Of a DNA stretch of 64,000 nt, positions 8,589 to 54,998 are shown one piece after another. The first letter of the stretch is position 1; each line of letters opens with the position of its first letter. The stretch spans positions 64,521 to 128,520 of the forward strand of contig JBGTMQ010000021.1 in assembly GCA_041743505.1 (NCBI GenBank). The letters run 5' to 3'. The translations under genes and the position numbers were made by a program. Under the pieces are notes generated by a model. That model ran no database searches. It was given only the letters and a program-made list of their open reading frames with translations, and was not told where the DNA came from. Source of the stretch: Candidatus Saccharimonadia bacterium (lineage in GTDB: Bacteria > Patescibacteriota > Saccharimonadia > UBA4664).

Positions 8589-8919
8589 TTATTATTTCTT
8601 CCTGTAATGCTGCCCCAATGGCTGTGGCCAGCTTAGACTGGTCCACGACGCCGACAGCTTCGAACCGGGTGCGACCGTTTTGGACTACCCGTACTGTCGG
8701 CAGAGCCATAATGCCCAGCCTGGTGGTGAGGCCCGGTTCCTCATCGACGTTTAATTTTGCTAGTACAATTTTACCATCAAAGGCGGCCTCCAATTCGCGT
8801 AGGCGCGGTTCCATGGTTAGGCATGGCCCACACCAGGGTGCCCAGACATCGAGCAGCACTAATTTTTCGGCTTTTACCACTACATCATCGTAGGTTTCTT
8901 CGGTCACGGACACAGGCAT
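8578..8919 (-). CDS. trxA: Thioredoxin
   Basis: WCGPC active site. 113 aa. Overlaps the trxB start by 11 nt. Confidence 0.9.
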
Positions 8920-8960
8920 CTCCCCTCCTCAAGCCATTCTTCGGTAGTGTAATAAAACTA

Positions 8961-8990
8961 TTGACGTACGCTATATGCAGCGTACATAAT
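8961..8990 (+). promoter_or_regulatory. Promoter TTGACG-N18-CATAAT upstream of nrdA
   Basis: -35 at 8961..8966 and -10 at 8985..8990. About 65 nt 5' of the nrdA ATG. Confidence 0.45.
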
Positions 8991-9013
8991 GCTAATGCTA
9001 ACACATGTGGTGT
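8966..9013 (+). promoter_or_regulatory. Candidate NrdR-box-like palindromes overlapping the nrdA promoter
   Basis: GTACGCT-ATATGC-AGCGTAC (8966..8985) and ACACATGTGGTGT (9001..9013), centres about 31 bp apart. They resemble NrdR boxes (acaCwAtATaTwGtgt) but do not fully fit. Confidence 0.25.
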
Positions 9014-9056
9014 ACATAAGGCAATCGATAACACTAGATGCACAGGAGGGTGCGAC

Positions 9057-11450
9057 ATGGATATTACCGTAACCAAGCGTGATGGCTCGAAACAGCCATA
9101 TGACGCCAATAAGATTAACCAAGCACTCGAACGAGCCAGCCGGGGTTTGCCGGATCAGATCAGCATGGTGGTGCAAGTGGCCACCGAGGTTCAGCTGACA
9201 CTGTTTGATGGTATCACCACTGAGCAGCTGGATGAAGCGGTGATCCAAACGGCGCTGCAAAACGTGAAAGACGACCCGGCCTTTGATGTGATTGCAGCCC
9301 GTTTGCTACTAAAGACTATTTACAAAAAAGTACTGGGCGATTATGCCACCGACGATGAGTTGGTGGCTTTGCACCGGGAGAAGTTTGTTGCTTATGTGAG
9401 GGATGGCGTGAAGCACGACTTGCTAGACAAGCGGATGGTCGAGGCGTTCGATCTGGACAAGCTGGCCGGTGCGCTGGTGCCGAGCCGCGACCAATTGATG
9501 AGGTATCTGGGCGTGGTGACAACGCGGAACCGTTACAGTTTGCGGCGAGATAGTGGCGAAGTGATTGAGGTGCCGCAATATACGTTGATGCGGGTGGCGA
9601 TGGGACTATCGTTTCATGAGCCGAATCCGACCGAGTCAGCGATTGGGTTTTATGACCATATGAGCCGACTGGAGTATTTGCCGGGTGGTTCGACGCGGGT
9701 AAACGCCGGCACCAAATATCCGCAGCTGGCTAATTGTTTCCTGATGGAAATGCAGGACGACATGGAGCACATTGCCAAAAGCAACCGTGACGTGATGTGG
9801 ATGACCAAGGGCACGGGCGGGATTGGTTTGGCGGTGACGAAGCTGCGGGCCGAGGGCTCGCCGGTACACAGCAACAACACGTTTTCGAGCGGCCCGATCC
9901 CGTTTATGCACACCGTAGATTCGATTTTGCGGGCGGTATCGCGGAACGGCAAGAAGTTTGGGGCGTTGTGCTTTTACATGGAAAACTGGCACATCGATTT
10001 CCCGGAGTTCTTGGACCTGAAGCAGAATTCCGGCGACCCGTACCGGCGGACGCGGACGGCTAACACAGCGGTGTGGATTAGTGATGAGTTTATGCGGCGG
10101 GCGCAGGCTGACGAGGACTGGTATTTGTTTGACCCAGCCGAGGTGCCGGACTTGAACGAGCTGTATGGCGGTGAGTTTAGTAAGCGGTACTCGGAATATG
10201 TGAAGCGGGCTGAGTCAGGACAGATGCGGGTGTTTAAAAAGATCCGGGCGCGGGAGCAGTTGAAAAGTATATTGATTACGCTGCAAACGACCTCGCATCC
10301 GTGGCTGACCTGGAAAGACACGGTGAACAACCGGGCATTGAATAGCAACACGGGCACGATTCACATGAGTAACTTGTGCACGGAGATTTGCCTGCCACAG
10401 GACCGTGACAATATTGCCGTGTGCAACCTGGCGTCGGTGAACTTGAGCGCGCATTTGTCGGTGGGAGCGGCTGATTTTGACTGGCCGCGATTGGAGGCCA
10501 GCGTGCGGTCGGCGGTACGGCAGTTGGATAACTTGATTGATATTACCGAGGTGCCGATTCCTGAGGCGATGCACTCGAATAAACAAAACCGGGCCATTGG
10601 CCTCGGGATGATGGGCTTCACCGACGCCTGCGAGCGGTTGGGACTGGCGTACGAGAGCGAGGAGGCCTACGGGCTGATGGACAAGCTGGCCGAGTTTATT
10701 AGCTACCAGGCGATAGATGAGAGTGCCCGGCTGGCCAAGGAACGTGGGGCTTACCCGAACTTTGAGGGGTCGCGGTGGAGCCAGGGACTGGTGCCATTTG
10801 ACACACTGAAGCTGACGGCGGCCGACCGCGGGATCAAGATTACGGTGGATCAGGGCGCCACACTGGACTGGGACGCGCTGCGGTCTAAGGTGAAGCGCGG
10901 TATGCGCAATGCGACGCTGATGGCCGTGGCGCCGACGGCCAACATGGCCCACGCGGCCGGGACCACGCCCGGGATTGACCCGCAGTTTTCGCAGATCTTT
11001 AGCCGTGCGACGTTGAACGGTAAGTTTCTAGAGGTTAATGGCAACCTGGTGAACGACTTGAAGGCACTCGGATTGTGGGAGAGCGTGCGAGAGGACATTT
11101 TGCGGGCACAGGGCGATATTCAGGGCATTGAGACAATTCCAGCGCGGGTTAAGGCCATATACAAGACCTCGTTTCAATTGTCGCCGTTGGCGTTTATTGA
11201 GATAGCGGCCCGGGCGCAAAAATGGATTGACCAAGCTATTAGCCGCAACATGTATCTGGAAACGCGCAATGTGGATGAGATGGTGGGTATTTACTCTGCG
11301 GCCTGGGAAAAGGGCCTCAAAACCACCTACTACCTTCACATGAAGCCCCGCCACACCGCCGAGCAGAGCACTGTTAAAGTCAACAAGTCCGCTGATATCG
11401 CTAAAGCCAAGCCGGGATTCGGCTTCGGGTTTTCGAAGCAGCCGTCGTAA
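9057..11450 (+). CDS. nrdA: Ribonucleoside-diphosphate reductase alpha subunit (class I, with ATP cone)
   Basis: ATP-cone N-terminus (VTKRDGSKQPYDANKINQALERAS). Catalytic core (NLCTEI...; C-terminal YYL). CAGGAGGG RBS before the ATG at 9057. The longer ORF from 8757 is an in-frame upstream extension. Confidence 0.9.
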   Translation: MDITVTKRDGSKQPYDANKINQALERASRGLPDQISMVVQVATEVQLTLFDGITTEQLDEAVIQTALQNVKDDPAFDVIAARLLLKTIYKKVLGDYATDDELVALHREKFVAYVRDGVKHDLLDKRMVEAFDLDKLAGALVPSRDQLMRYLGVVTTRNRYSLRRDSGEVIEVPQYTLMRVAMGLSFHEPNPTESAIGFYDHMSRLEYLPGGSTRVNAGTKYPQLANCFLMEMQDDMEHIAKSNRDVMWMTKGTGGIGLAVTKLRAEGSPVHSNNTFSSGPIPFMHTVDSILRAVSRNGKKFGALCFYMENWHIDFPEFLDLKQNSGDPYRRTRTANTAVWISDEFMRRAQADEDWYLFDPAEVPDLNELYGGEFSKRYSEYVKRAESGQMRVFKKIRAREQLKSILITLQTTSHPWLTWKDTVNNRALNSNTGTIHMSNLCTEICLPQDRDNIAVCNLASVNLSAHLSVGAADFDWPRLEASVRSAVRQLDNLIDITEVPIPEAMHSNKQNRAIGLGMMGFTDACERLGLAYESEEAYGLMDKLAEFISYQAIDESARLAKERGAYPNFEGSRWSQGLVPFDTLKLTAADRGIKITVDQGATLDWDALRSKVKRGMRNATLMAVAPTANMAHAAGTTPGIDPQFSQIFSRATLNGKFLEVNGNLVNDLKALGLWESVREDILRAQGDIQGIETIPARVKAIYKTSFQLSPLAFIEIAARAQKWIDQAISRNMYLETRNVDEMVGIYSAAWEKGLKTTYYLHMKPRHTAEQSTVKVNKSADIAKAKPGFGFGFSKQPS

Positions 11451-12372: not shown

Positions 12373-13368
12373 ATGGGTATTTTAGGAACCGGCATCCAGG
12401 ATGGATTGCTGCTTAAACCGATACATTATCAATGGGCGTATGACCTATATAACCAGGCGGTGGCTAATACTTGGTTTCCGAATGAGATTCAATTGGGCGA
12501 GGATTTGGGTGACTGGAAAAAGATGAGCGATGAGGAGCGTCATGCGTTGACGTTTTTAATGAGCTACTTTAACCCAAATGAGCTGCTAGTGAATAAGGCG
12601 CTGGCGTTTGGGGTGTATCCGTACATTAATGCGCCAGAGGCTCATTTGTACTTGGCCAAGCAAATGTGGGAAGAGGCCAATCACTGTATGGCGTTTGAGT
12701 ACGTATTAGAGACGTTCCCGATTGACCGAGAACAGGCTTATGAGGCGCATGTGGACGTACCGTCAATGGCGCGCAAGGAGGAGTTTGAGGTCAGGTTTAT
12801 TAAGCGCATGACCGAGCAGACGCTGGATATTACGAGTACTGAGGGTAAGCGCGATTTTGTACGCAATTTGGTGGCTTACAACGTTATTTTGGAAGGCATT
12901 TGGTTTTACTCGGGATTCATGGTGGCTTTGAGCTTTCGGCAGCGGAATTTGTTGCGAAACTTTGGTTCATTGATTGACTGGATTGTGCGGGACGAGAGTT
13001 TGCACTTGAAGTTTGGGATAAATTTGATTTTGACGGTGATGGAAGAGAATGCTGACTTGCAGACACCGGAGTTTGCCGACGAAATTAAGCAGATGATTTT
13101 GGATGGCGTGGAGATGGAGACCGAGTACAACCGGGATTTGTTACCGAGCGGGATTTTGGGTCTGAATGCGGATTATATAAACCAGTATGTGAAGTATTTG
13201 GCGGACCGTCGGCTGGTGGAGTTGGGCTTTGGCGCGCACTATAACGTGAGTAATCCGGCCAAGTGGATGGCCGCAGCTAATGACACGCTCCAACTAGTGA
13301 ATTTCTTTGAAGCCACTAATACCAGTTACGAAGTGAACGCTAATGCGCACAACAAAACGGATAAGTAG
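12373..13368 (+). CDS. nrdB: Ribonucleoside-diphosphate reductase beta subunit
   Basis: Ferritin-like di-iron ligand blocks (EEANHCMAFEYV..., IWFYSGF..., VRDESLH...). Confidence 0.9.
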   Translation: MGILGTGIQDGLLLKPIHYQWAYDLYNQAVANTWFPNEIQLGEDLGDWKKMSDEERHALTFLMSYFNPNELLVNKALAFGVYPYINAPEAHLYLAKQMWEEANHCMAFEYVLETFPIDREQAYEAHVDVPSMARKEEFEVRFIKRMTEQTLDITSTEGKRDFVRNLVAYNVILEGIWFYSGFMVALSFRQRNLLRNFGSLIDWIVRDESLHLKFGINLILTVMEENADLQTPEFADEIKQMILDGVEMETEYNRDLLPSGILGLNADYINQYVKYLADRRLVELGFGAHYNVSNPAKWMAAANDTLQLVNFFEATNTSYEVNANAHNKTDK

Positions 13369-22078: not shown

Positions 22079-22348
22079 CTAGTGTCTACTCTGCTTTTTT
22101 TGTAACTTTGTTTCGAATAAGAGATCGGCTAGGAATACAAAGAGCATAAAGCCCAAGACGCTCATAATGCTTTCGAGAAGGCTGTTGCCACGCCAATATA
22201 GTACCGCGAGCAATAGAAGTGCAGCGAGGCCGAGAACTAACCAAAAAATATGGATTTTGCCCTTTTGTCTCGCATATGATGCCGCGAGAATGAGGCAGAC
22301 AATTGGTAGGCCGATCAATAAGTCTACTAAATAATTCATAAATATCAT
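22079..22348 (-). CDS. Small 3-TM membrane protein (89 aa) in a lower-GC stretch
   Basis: Hydrophobic. AT-skewed codon usage relative to its neighbours. Confidence 0.4.
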   Translation of the reverse strand: MIFMNYLVDLLIGLPIVCLILAASYARQKGKIHIFWLVLGLAALLLLAVLYWRGNSLLESIMSVLGFMLFVFLADLLFETKLQKKQSRH

Positions 22349-22635
22349 TATACTCAGAATCGATCAATCCTTTAATTTAAGACTGCTTACGGTCTGTTTC
22401 TCCGGTGACTGCGACTTTTTATCAATTTTAGTGCGCTTCTTGTGCGCCTCAATAAGCTGCAATATGAAGAACCACCCGAGGAAGAATACGAGTATACCAA
22501 TCAGGGGCTCAAGCATATGTCATCAACATAGATTACTTGCATATAGGAGACGCGAAAGATGTTTACTATTGCTTTTCGCAATGTCCACCGGTATTTCATA
22601 ACTATGGCCGCTGCCTTGGCTTGTGAGTAGCTAGA

Positions 22636-22878
22636 CTACTCAGAATCTTTACCAGCCTTGCCTTTGCCATATATCGCTTTATGCGTACGCCACATTAGGT
22701 AAGCTATTCCAAAACTGATTAGAGGAGTGACTACCTGCTGGAAGAACTGAGAGCCACTAGTATATGCGCCTGCAAATATAACGAGAAGCAGGTCAATAAA
22801 GAAGGCCAATACAAAGATAGAGGCAATTGTTGTTACCACTGTCCGCAAATTAAGCGTGCGCTTTGTCATACTTCTCAT
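22636..22878 (-). CDS. Small 2-TM membrane protein (80 aa)
   Basis: Hydrophobic. Same lower-GC stretch. Confidence 0.4.
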   Translation of the reverse strand: MRSMTKRTLNLRTVVTTIASIFVLAFFIDLLLVIFAGAYTSGSQFFQQVVTPLISFGIAYLMWRTHKAIYGKGKAGKDSE

Positions 22879-22960
22879 CTACAGTTATCAGCTTTCAGTA
22901 TACATTATGATCGAAAATAATTGTCGCCCGCGAAAGATGTAATCGCGGGCGACCTGGTGC

Positions 22961-23535: not shown

Positions 23536-24831
23536 TTACTCGTAGCGGAGTGAGTCGATGGGGCTTTGACGGGCGGCGCGGTAGGCCGGGAGGGTGCCGG
23601 CTAAAAAGGCGATGGCCATGACAAGTCCGATGATGGCAGCGATGGAGGTTAGCGGGAAGGATAACAATTGCAGGCCGACGAGGTCCTTGAGAAAGTTTTT
23701 CGAGACGACATCATTAATGACCTGGCCGGCGAGAATGGCTGTGCCGGCGCCGAGGAGACTGCCCCAGAACCCCAGCATCACGGCCTCGGTGCTAAACAGT
23801 AGGAAGATGCGGCCGCCGCCCATGCCCATGGCTTTCATGAGGCCGATTTCTTTGGTGCGCTCTTGCACCGACATGAGGAGCGTGTTGATGATGCCAAAGC
23901 TGGCCGCCAGTAGGGCGATGATGGCGAAGGCGTCCAAGGCCAGGATGATACCATTGATAACTTGTTTGAAGCTGCCGATTTGGTCGACAAAGGTAGTGGC
24001 TTCGTAGCCGTCTTTTTTGAGGGCCTCCTTGAGCGCGGTGACTTGCTGCTCTGTTGAGTTGCCGTCAAACTTGGCGATGAGCATTTGGTAGCTGTTGATG
24101 GCAGACGGGGGCAGCCCGATGGTTTGGGCTTTAAATATGGCACTGGTGAGGGTTGAATTGGTATTCATGCCCCCGGAGTTGGTTAGACCCTTTTGCTGCA
24201 CCCCTTTGAGGGTGGTTTTAATTTCATGCTGCTTGCCGGTACCATCAGTGACACCGATCCTAACCTCCTGGCCGACGACAGCTTGGTTGCTTGAGTAACC
24301 AAGTACTGATACGTACTCAACCGGTAGAAGCGCTTGATGCTCGCTGGCGGAGTTGCTGAGCTGGCTGCCCGAGGCCAGGTCAATATTGGTGCCGGTAATG
24401 TAGGGGCCGGCCGACATCTGATACTTCTTGCCATTAGCACCGACGATATAATCCGGCGTTATTATCAGGTTTGGTTCGACGCTTTTGATACCGGAAACTT
24501 TCTTAATTTTGGCGACATCAGCGTTGGTCAAGACGGTGGTAGTGGTGCCGAAGGCTGTAGCTGAAACTTTTTTGGCCGGGTCATAGGCCTTGGGGTCGCC
24601 GCCACCTCCTGGTCCGCCATCGTTGCTACCGGCGGCTTGGATTATCATGACGTCTTTGGCGCCAAGGTTTTCGACCTGCTTATCGATGTAGCTGGATATG
24701 CCGGTACCGAGTCCACTGGTCAGCGTGAGGGTAAAGGCGCCAATAAAAATGGCCAGGATGGTGAGGACGGTCCGCAGTTTGCTGCGGAACATGTTGCTAG
24801 AGGCAGTGGTGAGAATATCGATGAGTCTCAT
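23536..24831 (-). CDS. MacB/FtsX-type ABC transporter permease with large extracytoplasmic domain
   Basis: N-terminal TM, ~250-aa periplasmic domain, C-terminal FtsX 3-TM bundle. 4-nt overlap with the ATPase gene. Confidence 0.8.
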   Translation of the reverse strand: MRLIDILTTASSNMFRSKLRTVLTILAIFIGAFTLTLTSGLGTGISSYIDKQVENLGAKDVMIIQAAGSNDGGPGGGGDPKAYDPAKKVSATAFGTTTTVLTNADVAKIKKVSGIKSVEPNLIITPDYIVGANGKKYQMSAGPYITGTNIDLASGSQLSNSASEHQALLPVEYVSVLGYSSNQAVVGQEVRIGVTDGTGKQHEIKTTLKGVQQKGLTNSGGMNTNSTLTSAIFKAQTIGLPPSAINSYQMLIAKFDGNSTEQQVTALKEALKKDGYEATTFVDQIGSFKQVINGIILALDAFAIIALLAASFGIINTLLMSVQERTKEIGLMKAMGMGGGRIFLLFSTEAVMLGFWGSLLGAGTAILAGQVINDVVSKNFLKDLVGLQLLSFPLTSIAAIIGLVMAIAFLAGTLPAYRAARQSPIDSLRYE

Positions 24832-25622
24832 AGGTGGACCAATCTTTTGGTGGGTGTGGCAGGGGGCTGAGGCTTAACACGAGGTGCAGGGGGTTGAGTG
24901 TCCGTGGGAGCATCGGGATGTACAGGTGGGCGGGTGGCAGGTCGGGCGGGTACATAAATTGCGCCGTCCTTGATGTAGATTTGCCGGTGGCAGCGCCGGG
25001 CCAGTTCCTCGTCGTGGGTCACCAGGATAAGGGTGATGCCTTGATCTTTATTGAGCGAAAAAATCAGGTCCTCGATCCTCTGGCCGGTGGTGCTGTCGAG
25101 ATTGCCGGTCGGCTCATCGGCGAAGATGATCTGGGGTTGATTGATGAGGGCCCGGGCGATGACGACGCGCTGCTTCTGGCCGCCGCTGAGGTCACTGGCT
25201 TTGTTGCGCGCCTTGTCCTCCAGCTCGACTTGACGCAACGCCTCAAGGCCGCGGCGCTTACGTTCTCCGCTGTGGACGCCGGCGATTTTGAGCGGCAAAA
25301 TGACGTTTTCGAGCACGCTGGTGTTGGCGTTTAGAAAGAATTGTTGGAAGACGAAGCCGAAGGTTTTATTGCGGAGCAGATTGAGGTTCCGGCCCGACAG
25401 CTTGCCGGCGTCTTGACCGGCCACACTGATGATGCCGCTGGTAGGTTTGTCGAGCAGCGCTAAAAGATGCATGAGGGTGGATTTACCCGAGCCACTTTTG
25501 CCTAGAATGGCCACGCTTTCACCTTTGGCGACGGTCAGCGTTACATTTTGCAAGGCGGTAAACAAGTTGCCGCCTTTGCCGTAGGTTTTGGTGAGAGCCT
25601 GGGTTTCGAGGATAGCGTTCAT
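24828..25622 (-). CDS. ABC transporter ATP-binding protein (MacB/LolD-like) with Pro-rich C-tail
   Basis: Walker A GKSGSGKST, signature LSGGQKQRV, Walker B IIFADEPTGNLD. Confidence 0.85.
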   Translation of the reverse strand: MNAILETQALTKTYGKGGNLFTALQNVTLTVAKGESVAILGKSGSGKSTLMHLLALLDKPTSGIISVAGQDAGKLSGRNLNLLRNKTFGFVFQQFFLNANTSVLENVILPLKIAGVHSGERKRRGLEALRQVELEDKARNKASDLSGGQKQRVVIARALINQPQIIFADEPTGNLDSTTGQRIEDLIFSLNKDQGITLILVTHDEELARRCHRQIYIKDGAIYVPARPATRPPVHPDAPTDTQPPAPRVKPQPPATPTKRLVHL

Positions 25623-25746: not shown

Positions 25747-26091
25747 TTATGGTAGCTGAATTAGCCCGACTATATTTTCATCGGCATCTTTTACGGAAGC
25801 CATTAATAGGCCACCGCCCATGTCCTTAACGTCTTGGTTAGCTCTTGCACCAGAGTGTAGGCATAACTGTAAGCTTTCTTTAATATCGCTGACCTGCCAA
25901 TAACTAACGGGGCCTGTCATTCCTTCGTGGTGGCCGCTGGGGTCCAGACCAATTTCTTGATCTCCAACTTTGAACCCGACATAAAAAGGTTCATCAAAAT
26001 AGGGCTCTGCCCCTAGGAGCTTGCTATAAAGTGCTTTTGCCTGAGTTAGGTTTTTAACCGGATAGATGGTTGATTTGATGCCTTGAACCAT
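25747..26091 (-). CDS. VOC/glyoxalase-bleomycin-resistance family protein
   Basis: 114 aa with a VOC-like beta-alpha-beta-beta-beta pattern. Confidence 0.5.
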   Translation of the reverse strand: MVQGIKSTIYPVKNLTQAKALYSKLLGAEPYFDEPFYVGFKVGDQEIGLDPSGHHEGMTGPVSYWQVSDIKESLQLCLHSGARANQDVKDMGGGLLMASVKDADENIVGLIQLP

Positions 26092-27729: not shown

Positions 27730-28356
27730 TCAGGGCCAATTAGACGCGGGCGTCATGGTTAGTGCAGCGACGGCGGCAAGAGCATCCTGGTACTCCTGGC
27801 CGGGCGCGTTTGAGGGGTTATACCAGCCGTGGCTGGCTTTGGTTCGCTGATCGGCCAGCCAGTCGTCGCGCCGGTGGCGAATGGGGTCATAAAAGTCTTT
27901 GAGCATGCCGTAGACCATGTCGCGATCCTGCTTAGCAGACAGTCCGCTACCTCCGCCAATAGCCCGACGGTACTCGGCGCTATTACCCCAGGCGAAGTCG
28001 TTATTGCCGAGGCAGTGGCTGGCCTCTTTGACCAATTCGCCATTTGGCAGACCGTGACGGTCGTGGGCATCGGCCTTAGCTAGCCCGTTGGGCAGGAATT
28101 TGGCGCCGTTTGGACCGAGCTCGATGGTGGCTAGGATCCGATCGGCCAGACATGTTACATGGCGCGGGCGGGTGGGATCAAAAAATACAGCACCAAATGA
28201 GTCACGGCCGTCCTCTACCTCCCCCGCTACAATCATGCCTTGGAGCCGGCCATCGGCTTTGACGGCCGCAGCCCTCATGATTAGCAAAATATCTTTGTTG
28301 CTGAGCGTGTGGCGCCAGGGGTTACGGTAGAGCTTCACAACAGGCGGCGGCCTCAT
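27730..28356 (-). CDS. Hypothetical protein (208 aa) with GGGSG...Q motif
   Basis: No confident family. Weak resemblance to macro/PARG-like GGG-x6-Q signatures only. Confidence 0.45.
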   Translation of the reverse strand: MRPPPVVKLYRNPWRHTLSNKDILLIMRAAAVKADGRLQGMIVAGEVEDGRDSFGAVFFDPTRPRHVTCLADRILATIELGPNGAKFLPNGLAKADAHDRHGLPNGELVKEASHCLGNNDFAWGNSAEYRRAIGGGSGLSAKQDRDMVYGMLKDFYDPIRHRRDDWLADQRTKASHGWYNPSNAPGQEYQDALAAVAALTMTPASNWP

Positions 28357-28457: not shown

Positions 28458-29039
28458 CTATTTAACTTGGACCCGCAGGTACTGAAACGTGCGCTGGCGT
28501 CCATGCCCCAGACGCTTGGCCCAACTAGTGGGATAGTGCTTGAGGTCATGGCCGGAGATTGGTTTTTGCTCGACTAAGTTGAAGCCTATTTTACTTAATT
28601 TGGGGGCAAGCTGCTGATAAAGGTAGGCGTCGTCGAGTTTGGGAAGGTTTCGGTGCTGAATTTCGGCGCTTTCGTAGCTGTCTTGATAGCCAAATAGGAT
28701 ATCGACAAAGGCGCCGGGCTGGCAAATACGGTGAATATTGCTCCATACGACCGGATCAGCGGTGACAATTCCGGATAATAACCCGGCCCAGGGGAAATTG
28801 ATGAATACTTGATTGGCCTGGCCGTTAAGCTCCACGGGTAAATCTTCGATACTGGCCAGCGCAAACAGAACGTTCTCCAGGCCGCCTTTGGCCGACTTGG
28901 CTAGGGCTTTGGCGGACGGCTTAATCATGGCTTTATGGTTGGGATCAAGGCCAATAAAAAGCCGGTCCGGATGCTGTTTGGCCATTTGATACACAAAGTC
29001 ACCGTCTCCGGTGCCAATGTCGACGACTATTCCCGGCAC
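28458..29039 (-). CDS. Class I SAM-dependent methyltransferase, KamB/NpmA-like (candidate 16S rRNA m1A1408 MTase)
   Basis: Motif I VVDIGTGDG. Blocks KGGLENVLF, INFPWAGLL, YQDSYESAEI, SWAKRLGHGRQRTF match the conserved pattern I recall for aminoglycoside-resistance A1408 methyltransferases. Needs HMM confirmation. Confidence 0.45.
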   Translation of the reverse strand: MPGIVVDIGTGDGDFVYQMAKQHPDRLFIGLDPNHKAMIKPSAKALAKSAKGGLENVLFALASIEDLPVELNGQANQVFINFPWAGLLSGIVTADPVVWSNIHRICQPGAFVDILFGYQDSYESAEIQHRNLPKLDDAYLYQQLAPKLSKIGFNLVEQKPISGHDLKHYPTSWAKRLGHGRQRTFQYLRVQVK

Positions 29040-29319
29040 TACGTTTGCCTACCCTTCTTTTGGCCCTTTTTAGCTAGGCTAACTAGGGGGCTTAACGGCA
29101 TATAGTTCTCTTGACCAGTTCGATAGCGTCAGATGACTTAATGGTCTGAGCGGTGATATTTAACTAATATTTTGCCGCGTACTACTTTCATAATGCCATT
29201 ATTTTACTATAAAACTTATGGTTTGGCAATAAACTTTTTACTACTTTCGGCACGCGTCCTACAAACGTGAGACAATGCTGGCAACTAGAAACATGATGGT
29301 ATTTTGCCTGCGTTATGGA

Positions 29320-29416: not shown

Positions 29417-29767
29417 ATGAATGATAAATCCCCTCGGGAAGCTTTAAAGGTGGCTATGGAAAAGCGGATTCTCAATGAATTCGGTTCTAAAATCCTTAAC
29501 GAAGAACGACTGGATAAGGTAGTTCAGTCAAGAAATAGTAAGCGCTTAGGTAGCTACGCCGACATGGCTTTTCATTGCGAATGTGACGATAAAGAGTGCA
29601 ATGAGACGATTTCGATGTCAACGGAAGAATACCAAAGGATGCACAATAAAACCAAGTATTTCATTGTGGTTCCTAGTCATGTTCGTCATGATATCGAGGA
29701 GATTATTAATTCCTTTGGTAACTATGCCTTGGTGGCTAAATATTTTCCGCACCCGAATACGCATTAA
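29417..29767 (+). CDS. AT-rich small protein (116 aa) with H-C-x-C-x4-C cluster, probably horizontally acquired
   Basis: Codon usage and GC differ sharply from the flanks. AAGGTAGG RBS. Confidence 0.4.
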   Translation: MNDKSPREALKVAMEKRILNEFGSKILNEERLDKVVQSRNSKRLGSYADMAFHCECDDKECNETISMSTEEYQRMHNKTKYFIVVPSHVRHDIEEIINSFGNYALVAKYFPHPNTH

Positions 29768-30236
29768 CAATATAATCCAGCACTTCCGGGAATTCCTGGC
29801 GCTCGATAAAATGTTTGGCGCCAGGGATTTTGTGGACTTCGGGTTGTAGGTGTCCGGAAACATACTCGAAATCGGCTTGCGGGATGTACGGGTCGTCGTC
29901 GCCATAGAACAAGCCGCTTTGTTTTTCGAGTTCGTCACCGAGTTCGGTGTGGTAGGGCGAGATGAGGACCGAGCCCTTGATGTGGTGGGTTTCGGCATAA
30001 CACATAGCGGCTATAGCGCCTGATGACCAGCCGACAATGACGTCGTTCTGGCCGATCTTAAAGAAGTCTTGCATGAAGGGTAGCCAATATTCGGCCCGGG
30101 CAATGATGGAATCGGGCATAGTTTCGAAGACGGTTTCAAAGCCGTATTGGTCTAGTTCGTGCTTGAGCCAAGGCGTCCAGGCAAAGCGCCAGTTGGTGGC
30201 TTGGTTGCCATGGATAAAAATGATGCGTGGCTTCAT
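29736..30236 (-). CDS. YdeN/RBBP9-like serine hydrolase (alpha/beta fold, 166 aa)
   Basis: GWSSGA nucleophile elbow. Short alpha/beta hydrolase typical of the DUF1234/YdeN family. Confidence 0.55.
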   Translation of the reverse strand: MKPRIIFIHGNQATNWRFAWTPWLKHELDQYGFETVFETMPDSIIARAEYWLPFMQDFFKIGQNDVIVGWSSGAIAAMCYAETHHIKGSVLISPYHTELGDELEKQSGLFYGDDDPYIPQADFEYVSGHLQPEVHKIPGAKHFIERQEFPEVLDYIVNAYSGAENI

Positions 30237-30313: not shown

Positions 30314-30946
30314 TTATAGCTGGCGGGCCATGATGACGCGGCCGCCGGCATCATGGTACTGGGCGATGGTTTTATAGCCGGCTTGGCCGAACCAGTGGTA
30401 GGCCACGCTTGGTGGGCTCGACATAGTCCTGAGCATGACAACGCTGTAGCCGAGATGAGCATAGCCTTGCAGCCACGCATGGTAGAGCTGTTTGGCTATT
30501 CCAAGCCTTCGGAACCGCCGAATAACACCTATGTCGTCCAGATAGACTACGCTGGGCGTTTGCTTGGAGCTTTGGAGTGCTGCGCTGATGCCACCCAGAC
30601 CAAGGTGGGTGTCGGCTTGGCCGGGTTCTAGCGGGTAGCCCCAGCAAAAGCCGACGACTTCCCCGCTTTCGAGGGCTAGTTGGCATGACGCTCCGGGCAT
30701 GGCCAGCTCGCGGACCAGATCGTTTTTGACTTGTTCGGCAGGCCAAAACTCTTCAACTGGGCGGTTGCAATGCGTGAAGTTGAGGCTTTTAAGCTGATAC
30801 CCCTGGTGCTTCCCCCACTGCTCGCCGCAGACAACGCAACGGCGCCACTCATTCCATGGCTTATCCGCAAATACCTCCTGGTAACACGCGATTAGGCCGG
30901 GTAGCGTATTCGAATCAGCTTCCGGGTTGAAGCTTTGATATCTCAT
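30314..30946 (-). CDS. GNAT-family acetyltransferase with N-terminal Cys/His cluster
   Basis: IRRFRRLGIAKQL acetyl-CoA motif. Confidence 0.6.
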   Translation of the reverse strand: MRYQSFNPEADSNTLPGLIACYQEVFADKPWNEWRRCVVCGEQWGKHQGYQLKSLNFTHCNRPVEEFWPAEQVKNDLVRELAMPGASCQLALESGEVVGFCWGYPLEPGQADTHLGLGGISAALQSSKQTPSVVYLDDIGVIRRFRRLGIAKQLYHAWLQGYAHLGYSVVMLRTMSSPPSVAYHWFGQAGYKTIAQYHDAGGRVIMARQL

Positions 30947-46859: not shown

Positions 46860-48107
46860 TTAATCGTGGCGGAGGGCCTCGATGGGATTGACACGAACGG
46901 CCCGCCAAGCCGGGTAGGCGACCACGAGCAGGGCGACCACGATAACCAATCCGAGAGTGCTAAAGACAAGCCACCAGGGCAGGCTAAAGATATTGACGGG
47001 ATCGGTGACGCCACGTGAGCTGGCCAGCCGGGTGAGACCGAGGTTAATGGCGACGCCCAGCAGCCAAGATGAGGCAATGCCGCAGATACCGCCCAAGACG
47101 GCCAGGCCAACGGCTTCGGCAACAAACAAGCGGCGGATGTCTTTGCGCCGGGCGCCGAGGGAGATCATAAGAGCGATTTCACGGGTGCGTTCGAGCAGAG
47201 AGATGGTGAGGGTGTTGAACATGCCTAAAACGGCGATGAGCATGCCAATGCCACCGAAGCCGGCCAGGATAAAGTTGAAGAAGACGAAAACCTGCTTGAT
47301 CTGGTTAAGGGTATCGATGGGCGATGTGGTGTTAAAGCCGAGCACCTCAATGCGCTTGCGAACGGCCGCGACATTGGACTCAGAGTCGACCATGACTTTG
47401 GCTTGCGCGTAATTGGTGACGCCGGCAGACGCGAAAAAGGTGTCGGGCATAAAGACCTCGGACCCGCTGCCGGTATCAACCACACCTTTAATAACGCCGT
47501 TGGCTAGGAGATGCCGTTTGGCGCCGTCGCCGGCGGGGGCCAAGATATCTAGGCGCAGGACTTTGCCGGTGGCTTTGGCGGGATCGCTAATGCCAATGAG
47601 CCTAGTGAGCGACGAGTTTACGAGTATCTCGCCGGGGCCGAGCTTGAGGCTGCCTTTGGTGGTGAGACGCAGCGAGCTGAGATTTAAGTAGGTTGAATCG
47701 GCGCCATAGACTACAGCATCGGTACTCGATTGGCCGAGCGTGACCTTGCTAGCCAGTGTGTAGCTTTTGGCAACGTCGGTGACATGAGGGATCTGGCGAA
47801 TTTTGGAGATATTCGGGGCATCGAGCGGGACAATATTGGAGCTGGGAGGCGTGACATCGACGGCGGTGACTGATTTGGATCCGATAACCTGCTTGAAAAC
47901 AAGATTTTGCAGGCCAAGACTAAATGAGAGTAAAAATGTGATGGAGCCAATGCCAATGAGAACGCCGCCGGCCGTGAGGAAGGTGCGGAGTTTGCGGGCA
48001 ATAAGGTTACGGTAGGCCATGTACAGGATTATTTTGGGACGAAGATGGCGCGTGCCGGCGTTGGCCTCGAATTCGACGTAGGCGGTCGACTTGACTGATT
48101 TAGCCAT
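46860..48107 (-). CDS. FtsX/MacB-type ABC permease
   Basis: N-terminal TM, ~250-aa extracytoplasmic domain, C-terminal 3-TM FtsX bundle. 8-nt overlap with the ATPase gene. Confidence 0.8.
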   Translation of the reverse strand: MAKSVKSTAYVEFEANAGTRHLRPKIILYMAYRNLIARKLRTFLTAGGVLIGIGSITFLLSFSLGLQNLVFKQVIGSKSVTAVDVTPPSSNIVPLDAPNISKIRQIPHVTDVAKSYTLASKVTLGQSSTDAVVYGADSTYLNLSSLRLTTKGSLKLGPGEILVNSSLTRLIGISDPAKATGKVLRLDILAPAGDGAKRHLLANGVIKGVVDTGSGSEVFMPDTFFASAGVTNYAQAKVMVDSESNVAAVRKRIEVLGFNTTSPIDTLNQIKQVFVFFNFILAGFGGIGMLIAVLGMFNTLTISLLERTREIALMISLGARRKDIRRLFVAEAVGLAVLGGICGIASSWLLGVAINLGLTRLASSRGVTDPVNIFSLPWWLVFSTLGLVIVVALLVVAYPAWRAVRVNPIEALRHD

Positions 48108-48831
48108 GTTTCACCCCTATTTTCCGGCGTCTGGCGGCATTTTGCTCGGTAGTGTCGGTGAGGAGGCCGTCTTTAATTTCTAGTTGTTGGGTACTAAAGC
48201 TCAGATAATCGAGGTTGTGGGTCACGAGAATGACGGTTTTACCCTGCTCTTTGACGCTCCGTTCGAGCAGGCCCATGATGAGCTCGCCGTTTCGGGAATC
48301 TAGATTGCCGGTGGGCTCATCGGCCACGATAACACGGGGGCTGGCAATAAGTGCGCGGGCCATGGAGACACGCTGTTGCTGCCCGCCCGAAAGTTGCGTT
48401 GGGTTGTGGGCCGAAATATTGCCGAGGCCGACCTGCTCGAGCCGCAACTGGGCGAGACTAGTGGCCTGCTGCCGGTCGTAGCCCGCTAGATAGAGCGGGA
48501 AGGAAACATTTTCGATGACATTGAGGCTACTAACCCAGTAGTTGGTTTGGTTGACCATGCCGAGGGTGAGCTGGCGGAACCGCGCCCGATCGTCCGGAGT
48601 GAGCTGGTAAAGGTCCTGTCCGAGCATGTCCACGGTTCCGCTAGTGGGAGGTTCGAGGCCGACAATGGTGTTGAGCAAGGTCGATTTACCTGAGCCGGAC
48701 GGTCCGTAGATGATGGCAAAAGCGCCCTCTTTGATTTCAAAGTTTACGTCGATGAGCGCCTTGACCGTCTCGGTGGCCAGGTCGAATTGTTTATGTAGAT
48801 TGGTGATTTTGAGAAGGGTTTTACTGCTCAT
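48100..48831 (-). CDS. ABC transporter ATP-binding protein (FtsE/MacB-like)
   Basis: Walker A GPSGSGKST, signature LSGGQQQRV, Walker B VIVADEPTGNLD. 4-nt overlap with the giant gene stop. Confidence 0.85.
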   Translation of the reverse strand: MSSKTLLKITNLHKQFDLATETVKALIDVNFEIKEGAFAIIYGPSGSGKSTLLNTIVGLEPPTSGTVDMLGQDLYQLTPDDRARFRQLTLGMVNQTNYWVSSLNVIENVSFPLYLAGYDRQQATSLAQLRLEQVGLGNISAHNPTQLSGGQQQRVSMARALIASPRVIVADEPTGNLDSRNGELIMGLLERSVKEQGKTVILVTHNLDYLSFSTQQLEIKDGLLTDTTEQNAARRRKIGVKHG

Positions 48832-54800: not shown

Positions 54801-54998
54801 GCGAAGGTGCGTTGCGGCCTGACCGGCGACGGACATGACGGCGGCCAAGCCACCTACTAGACGCGGCCGCACTGTTGACATGGCACGGCTAGCCCATCGC
54901 TGGACATAGGCTACACCGCGCCTTACCAGCACTGACCTAGCGGTTGCGCTACGGCGTCGTGCGGCTTTGTTTGCTCCTCCTAGTTTCGACCGGGCCAT
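48828..54998 (-). CDS. Giant (2056 aa) signal-anchored surface protein: LamG/ConA-like, ~15-17 propeller-like tandem repeats, second LamG, multiple Fn3/Ig-like domains
   Basis: Basic cytoplasmic N-terminus then a TM. LamG_3-like blocks (W.HLAATYDG..MKLYIDG...SLDEVRISD). ~50-aa repeats (LYAGLGNTAGDAEVWRYNGTAWTQIGGDGLNSSW...). C-terminal Fn3-like modules. Confidence 0.8.
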   Translation of the reverse strand: MARSKLGGANKAARRRSATARSVLVRRGVAYVQRWASRAMSTVRPRLVGGLAAVMSVAGQAATHLRTAHHHLAARPHQHLRRQFDWYDRWHNHRHHHRVHYAALTAYIIGIFFVSGLHHAIFADSSHTWDFTTPSNFSIDSALEVSGTSVRHKAQNYTPDAATEALYHLDEAGGGSAADSSTNSNTGAVTGGTFGLGNLNNGLTLNGTSDQVSATDSASLSLDQDNTLEAWTKFAGTFSDTSHDHQQGVIDKGSYKLYYDQETGKVTYELANSAATNWTQQAGNDVKSSWDLNGKLSVNAQVAIGGNVYAALGNAVADAEVWKWDGSTWTQIGGDGKNSSWSDQTFENVLSLAANGNTLYAGLGSSAGDAEVWSCDTSTGCSSWTKIGGDGINSSWVVNTYEEVTSMVVMGSNLYAGIGSSANDAEVWRWNGSAWTKVGGDSLASGWTTNYEIVPSLATDGTNIYAGLGLTAGDAEVWRCGNCGTTPAWTKIGGDAVNSSWADVTYETVQSLRWLGSDLYAGIGLSTTDAEVWRYNGTAWTQIGGDGLNSSWNTNYEGVYALTDDGTNVYAGLGNTAGDNEVWRYNGTAWTQIGGDGLNSGFTNTHTIVQSLLYTGSTLYAGLTAAGNNAEIWTYNGTSWTRMGGGYVNKSWGFFNLQDVESMTVSGDYLYAGLGNTVAGNAQVWRFDGTSWALVGGQGINSSWAVNTFENVLSMTSYGGNLYVGLGTTAGDAEVWRYNGTAWTQIGGDSLNSGWAAGYEEVYSLATFGGNLYAGLGNTAGDAEVWRWNGTAWTKIGGDSLNSGWAAGFERVSSMTVFGGQLHVGLGASATDAEVWRWGGATWTKIGGDGLNSSWNTVYEQVESLQAYNGKLYAGLGNTTADAEIWEWNGTAWSQIGGDAIGGSWIDGQYEQAKGLSVYNGGLYAGLANTASDGEVWQYDNGAWTQIGGDAMNGSWAVNATETVRAMTTYRGKLYAGLGDSANVDAAIWSYGNNGFLQSATVGQNTSWHHLAATYDGGTMKLYIDGTLNASTSASLSLPNTSQPLLLGTTFGAAQAGVAQGYFAGSLDEVRISDSARSSFTTKPYSNAPLAVSPLSAVLGTGVASWSAFSDSSTLGGGSINYRLSTDNGTTWKYWSGSAWVVSADTTQTNSAAVINSNIATFPVVMGGGIKWQAIAQGDGTQRVTLDSVTVSGITDITPPETNATAAVMYKSAGGPTVASNDWTNGGSPYFSWTAGSDAGAGIYGYCLYLGQTAGSDPTSTKGILGNSPLATTGTPCQFIVPGDSVDLATSGYLASALTSSNNPYYLYVTAIDRAGNAVSSTSTNFQFRFDNTTPTNPAFITAPSNFIATKTATLTWQTSGSDAASDANSGVAGLQYRIGASSPWYGDNHFGTQDATDLLANDGSYTTQNTPDFANLIEGNNTIYFRTWDLAGNVSPVYVTTALKINTSSPSSPQNLAAIPTTNTTNSFSFNWVAPASFAGQAANLTYCYTVNATPTVSNCTFTAAGVTNITAGPYATQPGDNTFYVVAKDEAGNINYATAASVIFTANTSAPGMPLNPDVVDASIKSTANWRLALTWEPPTNPGAGVATYRVFRSTDNVNFSVVATTSATSLVDSGLSQITYYYKIKACDSANNCGVASNSVSKLPTGRFTSPAGLLNQVAVQNVTTRRATISWVTNRASDSRIALGTSSGNYSSDEVANSNQVTAHTINLTNLSPGTLYFAKAKWIDEDGNLGSSDEFSFTTAPAPLIKEVTNPSVGLTSTSIHFTSKDATSTKIYFGKTDSFGGVQILNTSTAESSYTAQLTNLDDGTKYFYKINTFDADGNEYNSSIFTFTTPARPRISDLRFQPVAGAPTNTQLVSWTTNVPATSGLQYGPRGQKQLEVSESKLTTDHQITISDLVDNSEYILTASSRDGSGNLAVSDQQVFRTALDTRPPKVSRVTIESSIKGTGSDARGQMVVSWKTDEPAASQVAFNQGSSGDSYSTKTAEDQNYTYDHVVIISDLPTSTVFHLKAISRDRAGNEGSSTDQSTIIGRGTESVLSIIFNALSNIFGFLK
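51950..54150 (-). repeat. Nucleotide-level tandem repeats (~150-156 bp units) encoding the propeller-like blades
   Basis: Recurring near-identical strings, e.g. gtcgccgccgatttgggtccaagccgtgccgttgtagcgccagacttc at ~53211 and ~53361. Confidence 0.6.

What the first reader, a model, noticed from the sequence alone, without database searches (positions are those of the whole stretch)
28458..29039. KamB/NpmA-like methyltransferase: candidate 16S rRNA A1408 N1-methyltransferase (aminoglycoside resistance determinant)
Beyond the generic SAM motif (VVDIGTGDG), several blocks (KGGLENVLF, INFPWAGLL, YQDSYESAEI...LPKL, SWAKRLGHGRQRTF) match the conserved pattern I recall for the KamB/NpmA family that methylates m1A1408 and confers kanamycin/apramycin-class resistance. 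The gene sits immediately beside an AT-rich, evidently foreign islet.
Basis: partly seen in the sequence, partly recalled or inferred. Interest (0 to 1): 0.6.

Follow-up and report, generated by a model that had tools for sequence, protein, structure and literature searches.

The report
Short-form NpmA/KamB-family 16S rRNA methyltransferase
This gene encodes an intact, divergent relative of the enzymes that methylate ribosomal RNA base A1408 and so block kanamycin- and apramycin-type antibiotics; it belongs to a shorter environmental branch of that known family, its effect on drug resistance is untested, and nothing suggests it was recently acquired.

Summary

- **Family:** it matches Pfam NpmA (PF24675) at 202.9 bits against a cutoff of 60.
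- **Fold:** the AlphaFold model (pLDDT 92.7) superposes on NpmA at TM 0.94 and 1.6 Å. The 19 best PDB matches are all A1408 methyltransferases.
- **Residues:** the residues that bind SAM, flip A1408 and stack on it in NpmA/KamB are all present (D7, D32, E65, W84, E123, R130, T171, W173, R176, R181, R183).
- **What differs:** the roughly 24-residue N-terminal beta-hairpin seen in every solved family member is absent. This is native. About 50 relatives of 189-196 aa, mostly from Patescibacteria, Dehalococcoidales and Dependentiae MAGs, start at the same MPGI(I/V)VDIGTGDG.
- **Precedent:** NCBI's model of WarA, which the literature cites as a proven resistance enzyme, starts at the same point.
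- **Named genes:** the protein is only 28-38% identical to characterised enzymes and scores far below the NCBIfam cutoffs for WarA, NpmA, KamB and NpmB.
- **Host and context:** the host is probably a Candidatus Saccharimonadia bacterium. The gene's GC content is typical of the window. Only the upstream spacer and one small 116-aa ORF are AT-rich, and there are no mobility genes or flanking repeats.

Verdict: a new member of a known kind. Activity and resistance phenotype are untested.

The parts
28458..29039 (-). CDS of 193 aa (GTG start, TAG stop): short-form Kam/NpmA-family SAM-dependent methyltransferase
   Evidence: ORF list. Pfam PF24675 at 202.9 bits, covering profile positions 25-210 of 214. 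An identical protein is called as a gene on two Logan contigs. About 50 homologues begin at the same MPGI(I/V)VDIGTGDG.
29001..29027 (-). Motif I (VVDIGTGDG, residues 5-13): the SAM-binding GxGxG loop, with D7 equivalent to NpmA/KamB D30
   Evidence: Alignment to NpmA. In alignment A1, D is present in 52/54 and the three G in 53/54. KamB D30A drops the kanamycin MIC to 20 ug/ml (PMC2995053).
28881..28934 (-). Beta2/3 linker (residues 36-53, KAMIKPSAKALAKSAKGG): the basic surface predicted to dock on 16S rRNA. K44, K48 and K51 correspond to NpmA K67, K71 and K74; the K66 and K70 equivalents are Ala.
   Evidence: Residue mapping. Role of the linker taken from PMC4705659.
28788..28790 (-). W84 codon (TGG), equivalent to NpmA W107 / KamB W105: first tryptophan of the A1408 stacking pocket
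   Evidence: Invariant in 54/54 homologues. KamB W105A and W105F abolish resistance.
28650..28673 (-). Beta5/6 linker segment (residues 123-130, ESAEIQHR): E123 corresponds to NpmA E146 and R130 to NpmA R153
   Evidence: Residue mapping. Roles taken from PMC4705659. E or D occupies the E123 column in 51/54 homologues. R130 is not conserved in the clade.
28485..28529 (-). Beta6/7 linker (residues 171-185, TSWAKRLGHGRQRTF). Equivalences: T171 = NpmA S195 / KamB T191; W173 = W197 / W193; R176 = R200 / R196; R181 = R205 / R201; R183 = R207 / R203.
   Evidence: Residue mapping. W173 is invariant in 54/54 and R183 is present in 53/54. The KamB substitutions W193A, R196A, R201A and T191A each abolish resistance. 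NpmA R207 stabilises the flipped A1408.
29048..29057 (-). Purine-rich Shine-Dalgarno-like stretch (GAAGGGTAGG), 8-12 nt upstream of the GTG start. It overlaps the in-frame TAG at 29051-29049 that closes the frame upstream.
   Evidence: Read directly from the sequence. Function is inferred.
29201..29229 (-). Sigma-70-like promoter candidate (TTGCCA-17-TAAAAT, 10 of 12 matches), about 160 nt upstream of the start
   Evidence: Consensus scan. The number of sites found does not exceed the shuffled expectation, so this is only a candidate.

Best explanation
The gene encodes a SAM-dependent class I methyltransferase of the Kam/NpmA family (16S rRNA adenine1408-N1 methyltransferase, EC 2.1.1.180), in a naturally short form without the N-terminal hairpin.

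Inferred mechanism, by homology to the NpmA-30S complex:
1. The enzyme docks on the assembled 30S subunit through its basic beta2/3 linker (K44, K48, K51).
2. The beta6/7 linker arginines (R183, helped by R176 and R181, and braced by E123 of the beta5/6 linker) hold A1408 of helix 44 flipped out.
3. The base stacks between W84 and W173.
4. A methyl group passes from SAM, bound by D7, G9/G11/G13, D32, E65 and T171, to N1 of the adenine.

Ribosomes carrying m1A1408 bind kanamycin-, neomycin- and apramycin-class aminoglycosides poorly. The expected phenotype is therefore intrinsic, chromosomally encoded aminoglycoside insensitivity in the host, which is probably a Candidatus Saccharimonadia bacterium.

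Shown here: the intact ORF, family membership, fold, conservation of the functional residues, and the existence of a coherent short-form clade. Inferred: the target nucleotide, catalytic activity and resistance phenotype.
For: - **Profile and sequence:** Pfam NpmA 202.9 bits against a cutoff of 60, E=4.8e-60. The ten best PDB sequence hits are all A1408 methyltransferases (NpmA, Kmr, CacKam, NpmB1, KamB, UncKam) at E 1e-36 to 1e-26. The next family, TrmB, reaches only 2e-4.
- **Structure:** AlphaFold2 model with pLDDT 92.7, pTM 0.88 and a seven-strand core. Foldseek ranks 19 A1408 methyltransferase chains first, with NpmA 3mte at TM 0.94 and rmsd 1.6 Å over 192 columns. Scores then drop to TM about 0.6 for unrelated methyltransferases.
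- **Residues:** all functionally defined NpmA/KamB residues are present. Across 54 homologues W84 and W173 are invariant and R183 is present in 53/54 (roles).
- **Short form is native:** homologues of 189-196 aa all start MPGI(I/V)VDIGTGDG. In a neighbour-joining tree the query sits in a clade of about 51 sequences, 49 of them short.
- **Hairpin is probably dispensable:** the KamB authors judged it not critical, and R8A had no effect. In the account of the NpmA-30S structure given in PMC4705659, contacts are made only by the beta2/3, beta5/6 and beta6/7 linkers. NCBI's 190-position WarA model starts at the position equal to NpmA model position 27-29. WarA is cited as conferring broad aminoglycoside resistance.
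- **Selection:** constraint against the two closest relatives is strong. pN is 0.20 and 0.30, while synonymous sites are saturated at pS 0.77 and 0.87.
Against: - No biochemical or phenotypic data exist for this protein or for any member of its short clade.
- Identity to characterised enzymes is only 28-38%.
- Scores are far below the NCBIfam cutoffs for the named enzymes: WarA 132 against 305, NpmA 130 against 470, KamB 111 against 350, NpmB 102 against 460.
- Two of the four NpmA beta2/3 lysines (K66, K70) are alanine here, and the N-terminal hairpin present in all solved structures is missing. 30S docking could therefore be weaker or different.
- Within this family, conserved residues do not always carry the same functional weight in different members (PMC4705659).
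- The closest relative found (70% identity, L084 from GCA_029288455.1) carries a 2-nt deletion inside motif I. If that is not an assembly error, the gene is dispensable in a related lineage.
- The distribution across genomes is patchy, so this is not a universal housekeeping function.
Confidence: 0.8

Rival explanations
1. Same fold, different substrate. The short-form clade could methylate another RNA, for example a tRNA as its nearest outgroup TrmB does, or another rRNA nucleotide. It would then have no effect on aminoglycosides.
For: The N-terminal element is missing and two beta2/3 lysines are lost. R130, the equivalent of NpmA R153, is not conserved across the clade. TrmB is the nearest other family: TIGR00091 at 40.3 bits and Pfam Methyltransf_4 at 37.9 bits.
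Against: The TrmB similarity covers only residues 4-83, the generic SAM-binding half, and is below cutoff (40.3 against 112.65). The A1408-specific elements are all retained and nearly invariant: the two stacking tryptophans, the beta6/7 linker WAKRLxxGRxR, and the acidic residue of the beta5/6 linker. The structural match to NpmA spans the whole chain at 1.6 Å.
Confidence: 0.1
2. It is a genuine m1A1408 methyltransferase, but its physiological role is ribosome fine-tuning or housekeeping modification in small-genome bacteria. Drug insensitivity would be a side effect, not a selected resistance determinant.
For: The gene is chromosomal and has host-like composition. It has no mobility context and no conserved neighbours or biosynthetic cluster. 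Relatives occur mostly in uncultured Patescibacteria, Dehalococcoidales, Dependentiae and Acidobacteriota that are not known aminoglycoside producers.
Against: The distribution is patchy. Only about a dozen short forms appear among the 80 best loci from 185,579 species genomes. The family has only 561 representatives at E<=1e-10 among 1.84 billion cluster representatives. The closest relative appears frameshifted. This pattern fits an accessory trait better than a core ribosome-biogenesis function.
Confidence: 0.08
3. It is an inactive relic: an ORF that remains open but no longer encodes a working enzyme.
For: The closest relative has a frameshift in motif I. The gene uses a GTG start with only an imperfect Shine-Dalgarno sequence, and the promoter candidate is no better than chance.
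Against: The ORF is full length with every catalytic residue intact. The model is confident. pN is much lower than pS. GTG is also the start in the 58%-identical relative L083.
Confidence: 0.02

Closest known systems
NpmA (plasmid-borne 16S rRNA m1A1408 methyltransferase of E. coli ARS3; PDB 3MTE, 3P2E, 4OX9)
   Same: It is the best sequence and structure match: E=1.6e-36, 37.7% identity over 183 aligned residues, TM 0.94 and rmsd 1.6 Å. Its residues D30, D55, E88, W107, E146, R153, S195, W197, R200, R205 and R207 all have equivalents here.
   Different: The query lacks NpmA residues 1-26, the N-terminal extension. The K66 and K70 equivalents are alanine. The gene is chromosomal in an uncultured environmental bacterium, not on a plasmid in a pathogen. 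It scores 129.7 bits against the NCBIfam NpmA cutoff of 470.
WarA (Nocardia wallacei chromosomal A1408 methyltransferase; Hershko et al. 2024, cited in PMC12406665 and PMC13493296)
   Same: It gives the highest NCBIfam score, 132 bits. NCBI's WarA model is 190 positions long and begins at the position equal to NpmA model position 27-29. On that evidence it is likewise a short, hairpin-less, chromosomally encoded Kam enzyme, and it is reported to confer broad aminoglycoside resistance.
   Different: The score is well below the equivalog cutoff (132 against 305), so the query is not WarA. The host phylum differs: Actinomycetota for WarA against probable Patescibacteria here. The WarA sequence and paper were not available, so direct identity and tree placement were not determined.
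KamB / Kmr / CacKam / NpmB1 / UncKam (other structurally solved Kam-family enzymes)
   Same: They share the same fold and active-site architecture. Foldseek TM is 0.70-0.87 at 28-35% identity. The KamB-critical residues W105, W193, R196, R201, D30, D55 and T191 all have equivalents.
   Different: All of them carry the beta-N1/beta-N2 hairpin and are 214-250 aa long. KamB is a self-resistance gene of an aminoglycoside producer, whereas no biosynthetic context is present here.
TrmB (tRNA m7G46 methyltransferase), the nearest outgroup family
   Same: It shares the class I methyltransferase core and the idiosyncratic topology described for NpmA and TrmB (PMC3061052). There is weak similarity over residues 4-83.
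   Different: It lacks the A1408-specific tryptophans and the beta6/7 arginine motif. Scores are below cutoff (40.3 against 112.65 bits) and Foldseek TM is only 0.61.

Membership tests
Kam/NpmA family (Pfam PF24675; 16S rRNA adenine1408-N1 methyltransferase) | Profile-HMM match above the curated gathering threshold | tested here: met
   202.9 bits against a cutoff of 60, E=4.8e-60, covering profile positions 25-210 of 214.
Kam/NpmA family | Class I (Rossmann-like) SAM-methyltransferase core of seven strands, with GxGxG motif I and the acidic and hydroxyl SAM ligands (NpmA D30, D55, E88, S195) | tested here: met
   The AlphaFold2 model has seven strands and pLDDT 92.7. D7, G9/G11/G13, D32, E65 and T171 align to the NpmA residues.
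Kam/NpmA family | Two conserved tryptophans that position the flipped A1408 (NpmA W107/W197; KamB W105/W193) | tested here: met
   W84 and W173 are present and invariant in 54/54 homologues.
Kam/NpmA family | Extended beta6/7 linker with critical arginines (NpmA R207; KamB R196/R201) | tested here: met
   The query reads W173-AKR176-LGHG-R181-Q-R183. R183 is present in 53/54 homologues.
Kam/NpmA family | Extended beta5/6 linker carrying the acidic residue that supports the flipping arginine (NpmA E146) and a basic rRNA contact (R153) | tested here: met
   E123 and R130 align to E146 and R153. E or D occupies that column in 51/54 of the clade, but R130 is not conserved in the clade.
Kam/NpmA family | Positively charged beta2/3 linker for docking on the 16S rRNA tertiary surface (NpmA K66, K67, K70, K71) | tested here: inconclusive
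   K44, K48 and K51 correspond to K67, K71 and K74, and K36 and K40 add further charge. The K66 and K70 equivalents are Ala in this protein, although the K70 column is K or R in 48/54 relatives. Whether the remaining charge is enough cannot be judged from sequence.
Kam/NpmA family | Short N-terminal beta-hairpin (beta-N1/beta-N2) present in all solved family structures | tested here: not met
   The match starts at Pfam profile position 25. An in-frame stop lies four codons upstream of the start. No remnant of the hairpin is encoded upstream. The literature regards the hairpin as not critical for function, and the WarA model lacks it as well. I therefore treat it as a common embellishment, not a defining feature.
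Kam/NpmA family | N1-methylation of A1408 in the intact 30S subunit | not testable with these tools
   Needs in vitro methylation with primer extension (stop at C1409), or mass spectrometry.
Kam/NpmA family | Confers resistance to kanamycin, neomycin and apramycin | not testable with these tools
   Needs heterologous expression and MIC assays.
Named resistance enzymes WarA, NpmA, KamB and NpmB (NCBIfam models NF051863, NF000030, NF000363, NF040634) | Score at or above the curated cutoff of the model | tested here: not met
   WarA 132 against 305, NpmA 129.7 against 470, KamB 110.9 against 350, NpmB 102 against 460. The protein is not an allele of any named gene, and these model cutoffs would not name it.
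TrmB (tRNA m7G46 methyltransferase) | Full-length match above the TIGR00091 or Pfam Methyltransf_4 family level | tested here: not met
   TIGR00091 scores 40.3 against 112.65 bits. Only residues 4-83 align.

The most novel reading that the evidence does not exclude
The 190-196-aa hairpin-less proteins would form a distinct 'minimal Kam' lineage that circulates among ultra-small or host-dependent bacteria (Patescibacteria including Saccharimonadia, Dependentiae, Dehalococcoidales). They would give these organisms intrinsic m1A1408-based aminoglycoside insensitivity. For Saccharimonadia, which live attached to Actinobacteria, this could be protection against antibiotics made by the host's own guild. 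It would also make candidate-phyla-radiation bacteria an unrecognised reservoir of pan-aminoglycoside resistance genes that the curated cutoffs of the four named-enzyme models do not reach.
Probability: 0.3. Interest if true: 0.5.

Novelty: new member of a known kind. Interest (0 to 1): 0.3.

Why it matters
m1A1408 methylation gives very high-level resistance to several aminoglycoside classes, and only a handful of such enzymes (KamB, Kmr, NpmA, NpmB, NpmC, WarA) have been characterised.

This gene shows three things. First, an intact, strongly constrained family member sits on the chromosome of a probable Saccharimonadia bacterium. Second, it belongs to a coherent short clade that lacks the N-terminal hairpin. 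Third, it scores far below the curated cutoffs of the four named-enzyme NCBIfam models.

If the clade is active, it would define the minimal catalytic unit of the family. It would also add uncultured small-genome bacteria to the environmental reservoir of these genes.

As it stands, this is a well-supported annotation, not a discovery. JGI already labels several close homologues '16S rRNA (adenine(1408)-N(1))-methyltransferase'.

Tried and rejected
1. **Truncated or frameshifted long-form gene.** A small upstream ORF, MKVVRGKILVKYHRSDH (29190-29137), superficially resembles Kam N-termini. I rejected this for three reasons. All close homologues start at the same MPGI.... The short proteins also form one clade.
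2. **Leader-peptide or riboswitch-type regulation of the 5' region.** No Rfam family matched. The fold of 29020-29200 is no better than shuffled sequence, at z=-0.48.
3. **Mobile element or genomic island around the gene.** Only short chance repeats were found. The neighbours are a DapE/ArgE-type deacylase, a GNAT, a small alpha/beta hydrolase and proteins without family matches, with no integrase or transposase. The gene's GC content is ordinary.
4. **Conserved operon partners.** None of the window's neighbours recurs beside the homologues in 80 other genomes.
5. **A resistance cluster with the nearby GNAT (30314-30946).** The only hit to an aminoglycoside acetyltransferase model is AAC(3)-I at 17.6 bits against a cutoff of 200, which is not evidence.
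6. **Obtaining WarA itself.** The paper is not held. None of ten other short forms reached the WarA cutoff.
7. **Acidobacteriota 213-aa relatives as 'long forms'.** Their 20-aa N-terminal tail is unrelated to the hairpin. Pfam coverage starts at profile position 20-24.
8. **dN/dS.** Synonymous sites are saturated, so only pN and pS are reported.
9. **Papers not held.** Dunkle 2014 and Witek & Conn 2014 could not be read. Their content is cited only as summarised in PMC4705659.

Full report
**1. Observation**

The ORF list shows a 193-aa ORF at exactly 28458-29039 on the - strand, starting with GTG. Reading the sequence and the three upstream frames shows an in-frame TAG four codons upstream, at 29051-29049. 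GTG at 29039 is therefore the first possible start. A purine-rich GAAGGGTAGG lies 8-12 nt upstream.

**2. Family assignment**

- Pfam gives NpmA (PF24675, '16S rRNA (adenine(1408)-N(1))-methyltransferase') at 202.9 bits against a gathering score of 60, E=4.8e-60. Generic methyltransferase families score below 38 bits.
- NCBIfam lists WarA (132 bits), NpmA (129.7), KamB (110.9) and NpmB (102) as the top four. All are far below their cutoffs of 305-470, which are set for the named proteins themselves.
- The ten best matches among PDB sequences are all A1408 methyltransferases: NpmA, Kmr, CacKam, NpmB1, KamB and UncKam, at E 1.6e-36 to 1.4e-26. TrmB follows at 2.4e-4.
- An AlphaFold2 model built on 54 homologues has mean pLDDT 92.7 and pTM 0.88, with seven core strands.
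- Foldseek against the PDB returns 19 A1408 methyltransferase chains first. NpmA 3mte gives TM 0.94 and rmsd 1.6 Å over 192 columns at 36% identity. There is then a clear drop to TM about 0.6 for unrelated methyltransferases.

**3. Functional residues**

With the NpmA alignment (query residue + 23 = NpmA residue up to the beta5/6 linker, + 24 after it), the equivalences are as follows.

| Query | NpmA | Query | NpmA |
|---|---|---|---|
| D7 | D30 | T171 | S195 (KamB T191) |
| G9/G11/G13 | GxGxG | W173 | W197 |
| D32 | D55 | R176 | R200 |
| E65 | E88 | R181 | R205 |
| W84 | W107 | R183 | R207 |
| E123 | E146 | | |
| R130 | R153 | | |

The roles of these residues come from the literature. In the NpmA-30S complex, contacts are made only by the beta2/3, beta5/6 and beta6/7 linkers. 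R207 holds the flipped A1408 phosphate, W197 positions the base, E146 supports R207, and R153 contacts rRNA (PMC4705659 introduction). In KamB, the substitutions W105A/F, W193A/F, R196A, R201A, D55A and T191A each reduce the kanamycin MIC to background (PMC2995053 Table 2).

Across the 54-sequence alignment W84 and W173 are invariant. R183 is present in 53/54, D7 in 52/54, and the E123 column is E or D in 51/54.

The beta2/3 linker keeps K44, K48 and K51 (NpmA K67, K71 and K74), but the equivalents of K66 and K70 are alanine. The whole protein has pI 8.6.

**4. What differs: the N-terminus**

The Pfam match starts at profile position 25. The roughly 24-26 residues that form the beta-N1/beta-N2 hairpin in all solved structures are absent (the hairpin is described).

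This is not a truncation artefact:
- 50 of the 54 database homologues are 176-207 aa, most of them 189-196 aa, and they begin MPGI(I/V)VDIGTGDG.
- The 58%-identical relative L083 also uses a GTG start at the same residue.
- No hairpin-like coding remnant lies upstream.
- In a neighbour-joining tree of 174 family members, the query sits in a clade of about 51 sequences, 49 of which are short.

Typical family members are 213-226 aa, and their match to the query begins near residue 27. The Acidobacteriota relatives (40-46% identity, 213 aa) carry an unrelated, low-complexity 20-aa tail in place of the hairpin.

A functional precedent exists. NCBI's WarA model is 190 positions long. In the query and in ten other proteins, the residue that aligns to WarA model position 1-3 aligns to NpmA model position 27-29. 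WarA is cited as a chromosomal enzyme of Nocardia wallacei that confers broad aminoglycoside resistance (Hershko et al. 2024, as cited in PMC12406665 and PMC13493296). I could not read the original paper. The KamB authors also concluded that the hairpin is unlikely to define function, since R8A had no effect.

**5. Distribution and host**

The family is small. Among 1.84 billion cluster representatives there are 928 hits at E<=1e-3, 561 at E<=1e-10 and 42 at E<=1e-30.

A scan of one genome per species found 408 loci that encode a relative. The short forms with at least 47% identity come from MAGs labelled Dehalococcoidales, Patescibacteria group, Falkowbacteria, WWE3, Microgenomates and Dependentiae. 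Single MAGs labelled Gammaproteobacteria and Bdellovibrionales also carry one.

The window's own genome was not among these. Its MurB is 77% identical to a protein from a 'Candidatus Saccharimonadia bacterium' MAG, and the next named hits are at about 60%. Its ribonucleotide reductase has named hits at 72-75% in a Patescibacteria MAG, in a MAG labelled Candidatus Acidoferrum and in Microbacteriaceae. I infer, with moderate confidence, that the host is a Saccharimonadia (candidate phyla radiation) bacterium.

**6. Context**

- The gene's GC is 0.521 (z=-0.84) and its GC3 is 0.598 against a window mean of 0.635, so it is compositionally native.
- The 377-nt upstream spacer has GC 0.43, similar to other spacers at 0.38-0.46.
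- Only the divergently oriented 116-aa ORF at 29417-29767 is a strong outlier (GC 0.40, z=-3.6). It has no family match.
- No tRNA, integrase, transposase or meaningful flanking repeat lies nearby.
- None of the neighbouring genes recurs next to homologues in 80 other genomes.
- A 208-aa gene of unknown function follows 101 nt downstream on the same strand, with a strong AAGGAGG ribosome-binding site and no intervening - strand terminator. Co-transcription is possible.
- A sigma-70-like site (TTGCCA-17-TAAAAT) lies about 160 nt upstream. The scan found no more sites than shuffled sequence gives.
- The 5' region has no significant RNA structure and no Rfam match.

The 'foreign islet' reading therefore applies at most to the small ORF, not to the methyltransferase gene.

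**7. Selection and the closest relative**

Against the 70%- and 58%-identical relatives, non-synonymous differences are 0.20 and 0.30 per site. Synonymous sites are saturated at 0.77 and 0.87, which indicates long-term purifying selection.

The 70% relative (contig JARIHE010000215.1 of GCA_029288455.1) has a 2-nt deletion inside the GTGDG motif, so its called gene starts downstream. This is either an assembly error or a sign that the gene is dispensable in a sister lineage.

**8. Conclusion**

This is a Kam/NpmA-family enzyme and a credible candidate 16S rRNA m1A1408 methyltransferase.

It is not any named resistance gene. It belongs to a hairpin-less short clade of environmental, mostly small-genome bacteria, and it shows no sign of recent acquisition. 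Catalytic activity, target and phenotype remain inferences from homology. Family studies warn that conserved residues can weigh differently in different members.

I rate it a new member of a known kind, of modest interest. The most novel reading still open is that this clade is a minimal, active Kam lineage that gives intrinsic aminoglycoside insensitivity to candidate-phyla-radiation bacteria.

Noticed in passing
window 29417-29767 (+): A 116-aa ORF with the lowest GC in the window (0.40, z=-3.6), Cys/His-rich in its centre (HCECDDKECNE). It has no Pfam match and only a sub-threshold NCBIfam hit, HxsD-like at 19 bits against a cutoff of 41. Its 3' end overlaps by 32 nt the convergent 166-aa alpha/beta-hydrolase gene (29736-30236). 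It is called as a gene on the Logan contigs. It may be foreign, and its function is unknown.
   Followed up: partly
L084 107-688 (contig JARIHE010000215.1 of GCA_029288455.1): The closest relative of the methyltransferase (70% identity) reads ATCGGCCGGAGACGG where the window has ATTGGCACCGGAGACGG. This is a 2-nt deletion inside SAM motif I that shifts the frame. The gene there is either a pseudogene or carries an assembly error.
   Followed up: partly
window 8757-11450 (+) and 12373-13368 (+): Class I ribonucleotide reductase alpha and beta genes. The longest-ORF call for alpha (897 aa) is about 100 codons longer than all homologues (794-797 aa cover 89% of it), so the true start is probably downstream. 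Named best hits at 72-75% identity include Microbacteriaceae (Actinobacteria) as well as a Patescibacteria MAG. This hints at gene exchange between Saccharimonadia and actinobacterial hosts.
   Followed up: no
window 25094 (ends of L001 and L002): Two independent Logan assemblies (SRR28170471 and SRR28170470) are 100% identical to the window. Both contigs end at window position 25094, inside the ABC-transporter ATPase gene (24828-25622). This suggests a recurrent assembly break or strain-variable junction there.
   Followed up: no
window 22086-22367 (-), 25747-26091 (-) and spacer 22368-22960: Further AT-rich patches: a 93-aa ORF (GC 0.41, z=-3.4), a 114-aa ORF (GC 0.45, z=-2.4) and a 593-nt spacer (GC 0.43). 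AT-rich small ORFs and spacers are a recurring feature of this window and are not specific to the methyltransferase locus.
   Followed up: partly
window 48828-54998 (-): A giant 2056-aa ORF with Laminin_G_3 (concanavalin-like), fibronectin-III and purple-acid-phosphatase N-terminal domains. It lies immediately downstream of MacB/FtsX-type ABC transporter genes (46860-48831). It is probably a large surface protein.
   Followed up: no
window 30314-30946 (-): A 210-aa GNAT acetyltransferase lies two genes upstream of the methyltransferase. Its only resistance-related hit is AAC(3)-I at 17.6 bits against a cutoff of 200, so there is no evidence that it is an aminoglycoside acetyltransferase.
   Followed up: partly
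window 27730-28356 (-): A 208-aa ORF lies 101 nt downstream of the methyltransferase on the same strand, with a strong AAGGAGG ribosome-binding site. It has no Pfam or NCBIfam match and no counterpart next to homologues in 80 other genomes. It may be co-transcribed, and its function is unknown.
   Followed up: partly
L014-L082 (Acidobacteriota / Pyrinomonadaceae MAGs): Dozens of Pyrinomonadaceae and other Acidobacteriota genomes carry a 213-aa Kam-family gene. Its conserved N-terminal tail (MAAPSDNS..ENLS..TGEG) is unrelated to the canonical beta-hairpin. This is a second hairpin-less lineage that appears widespread in that family.
   Followed up: partly
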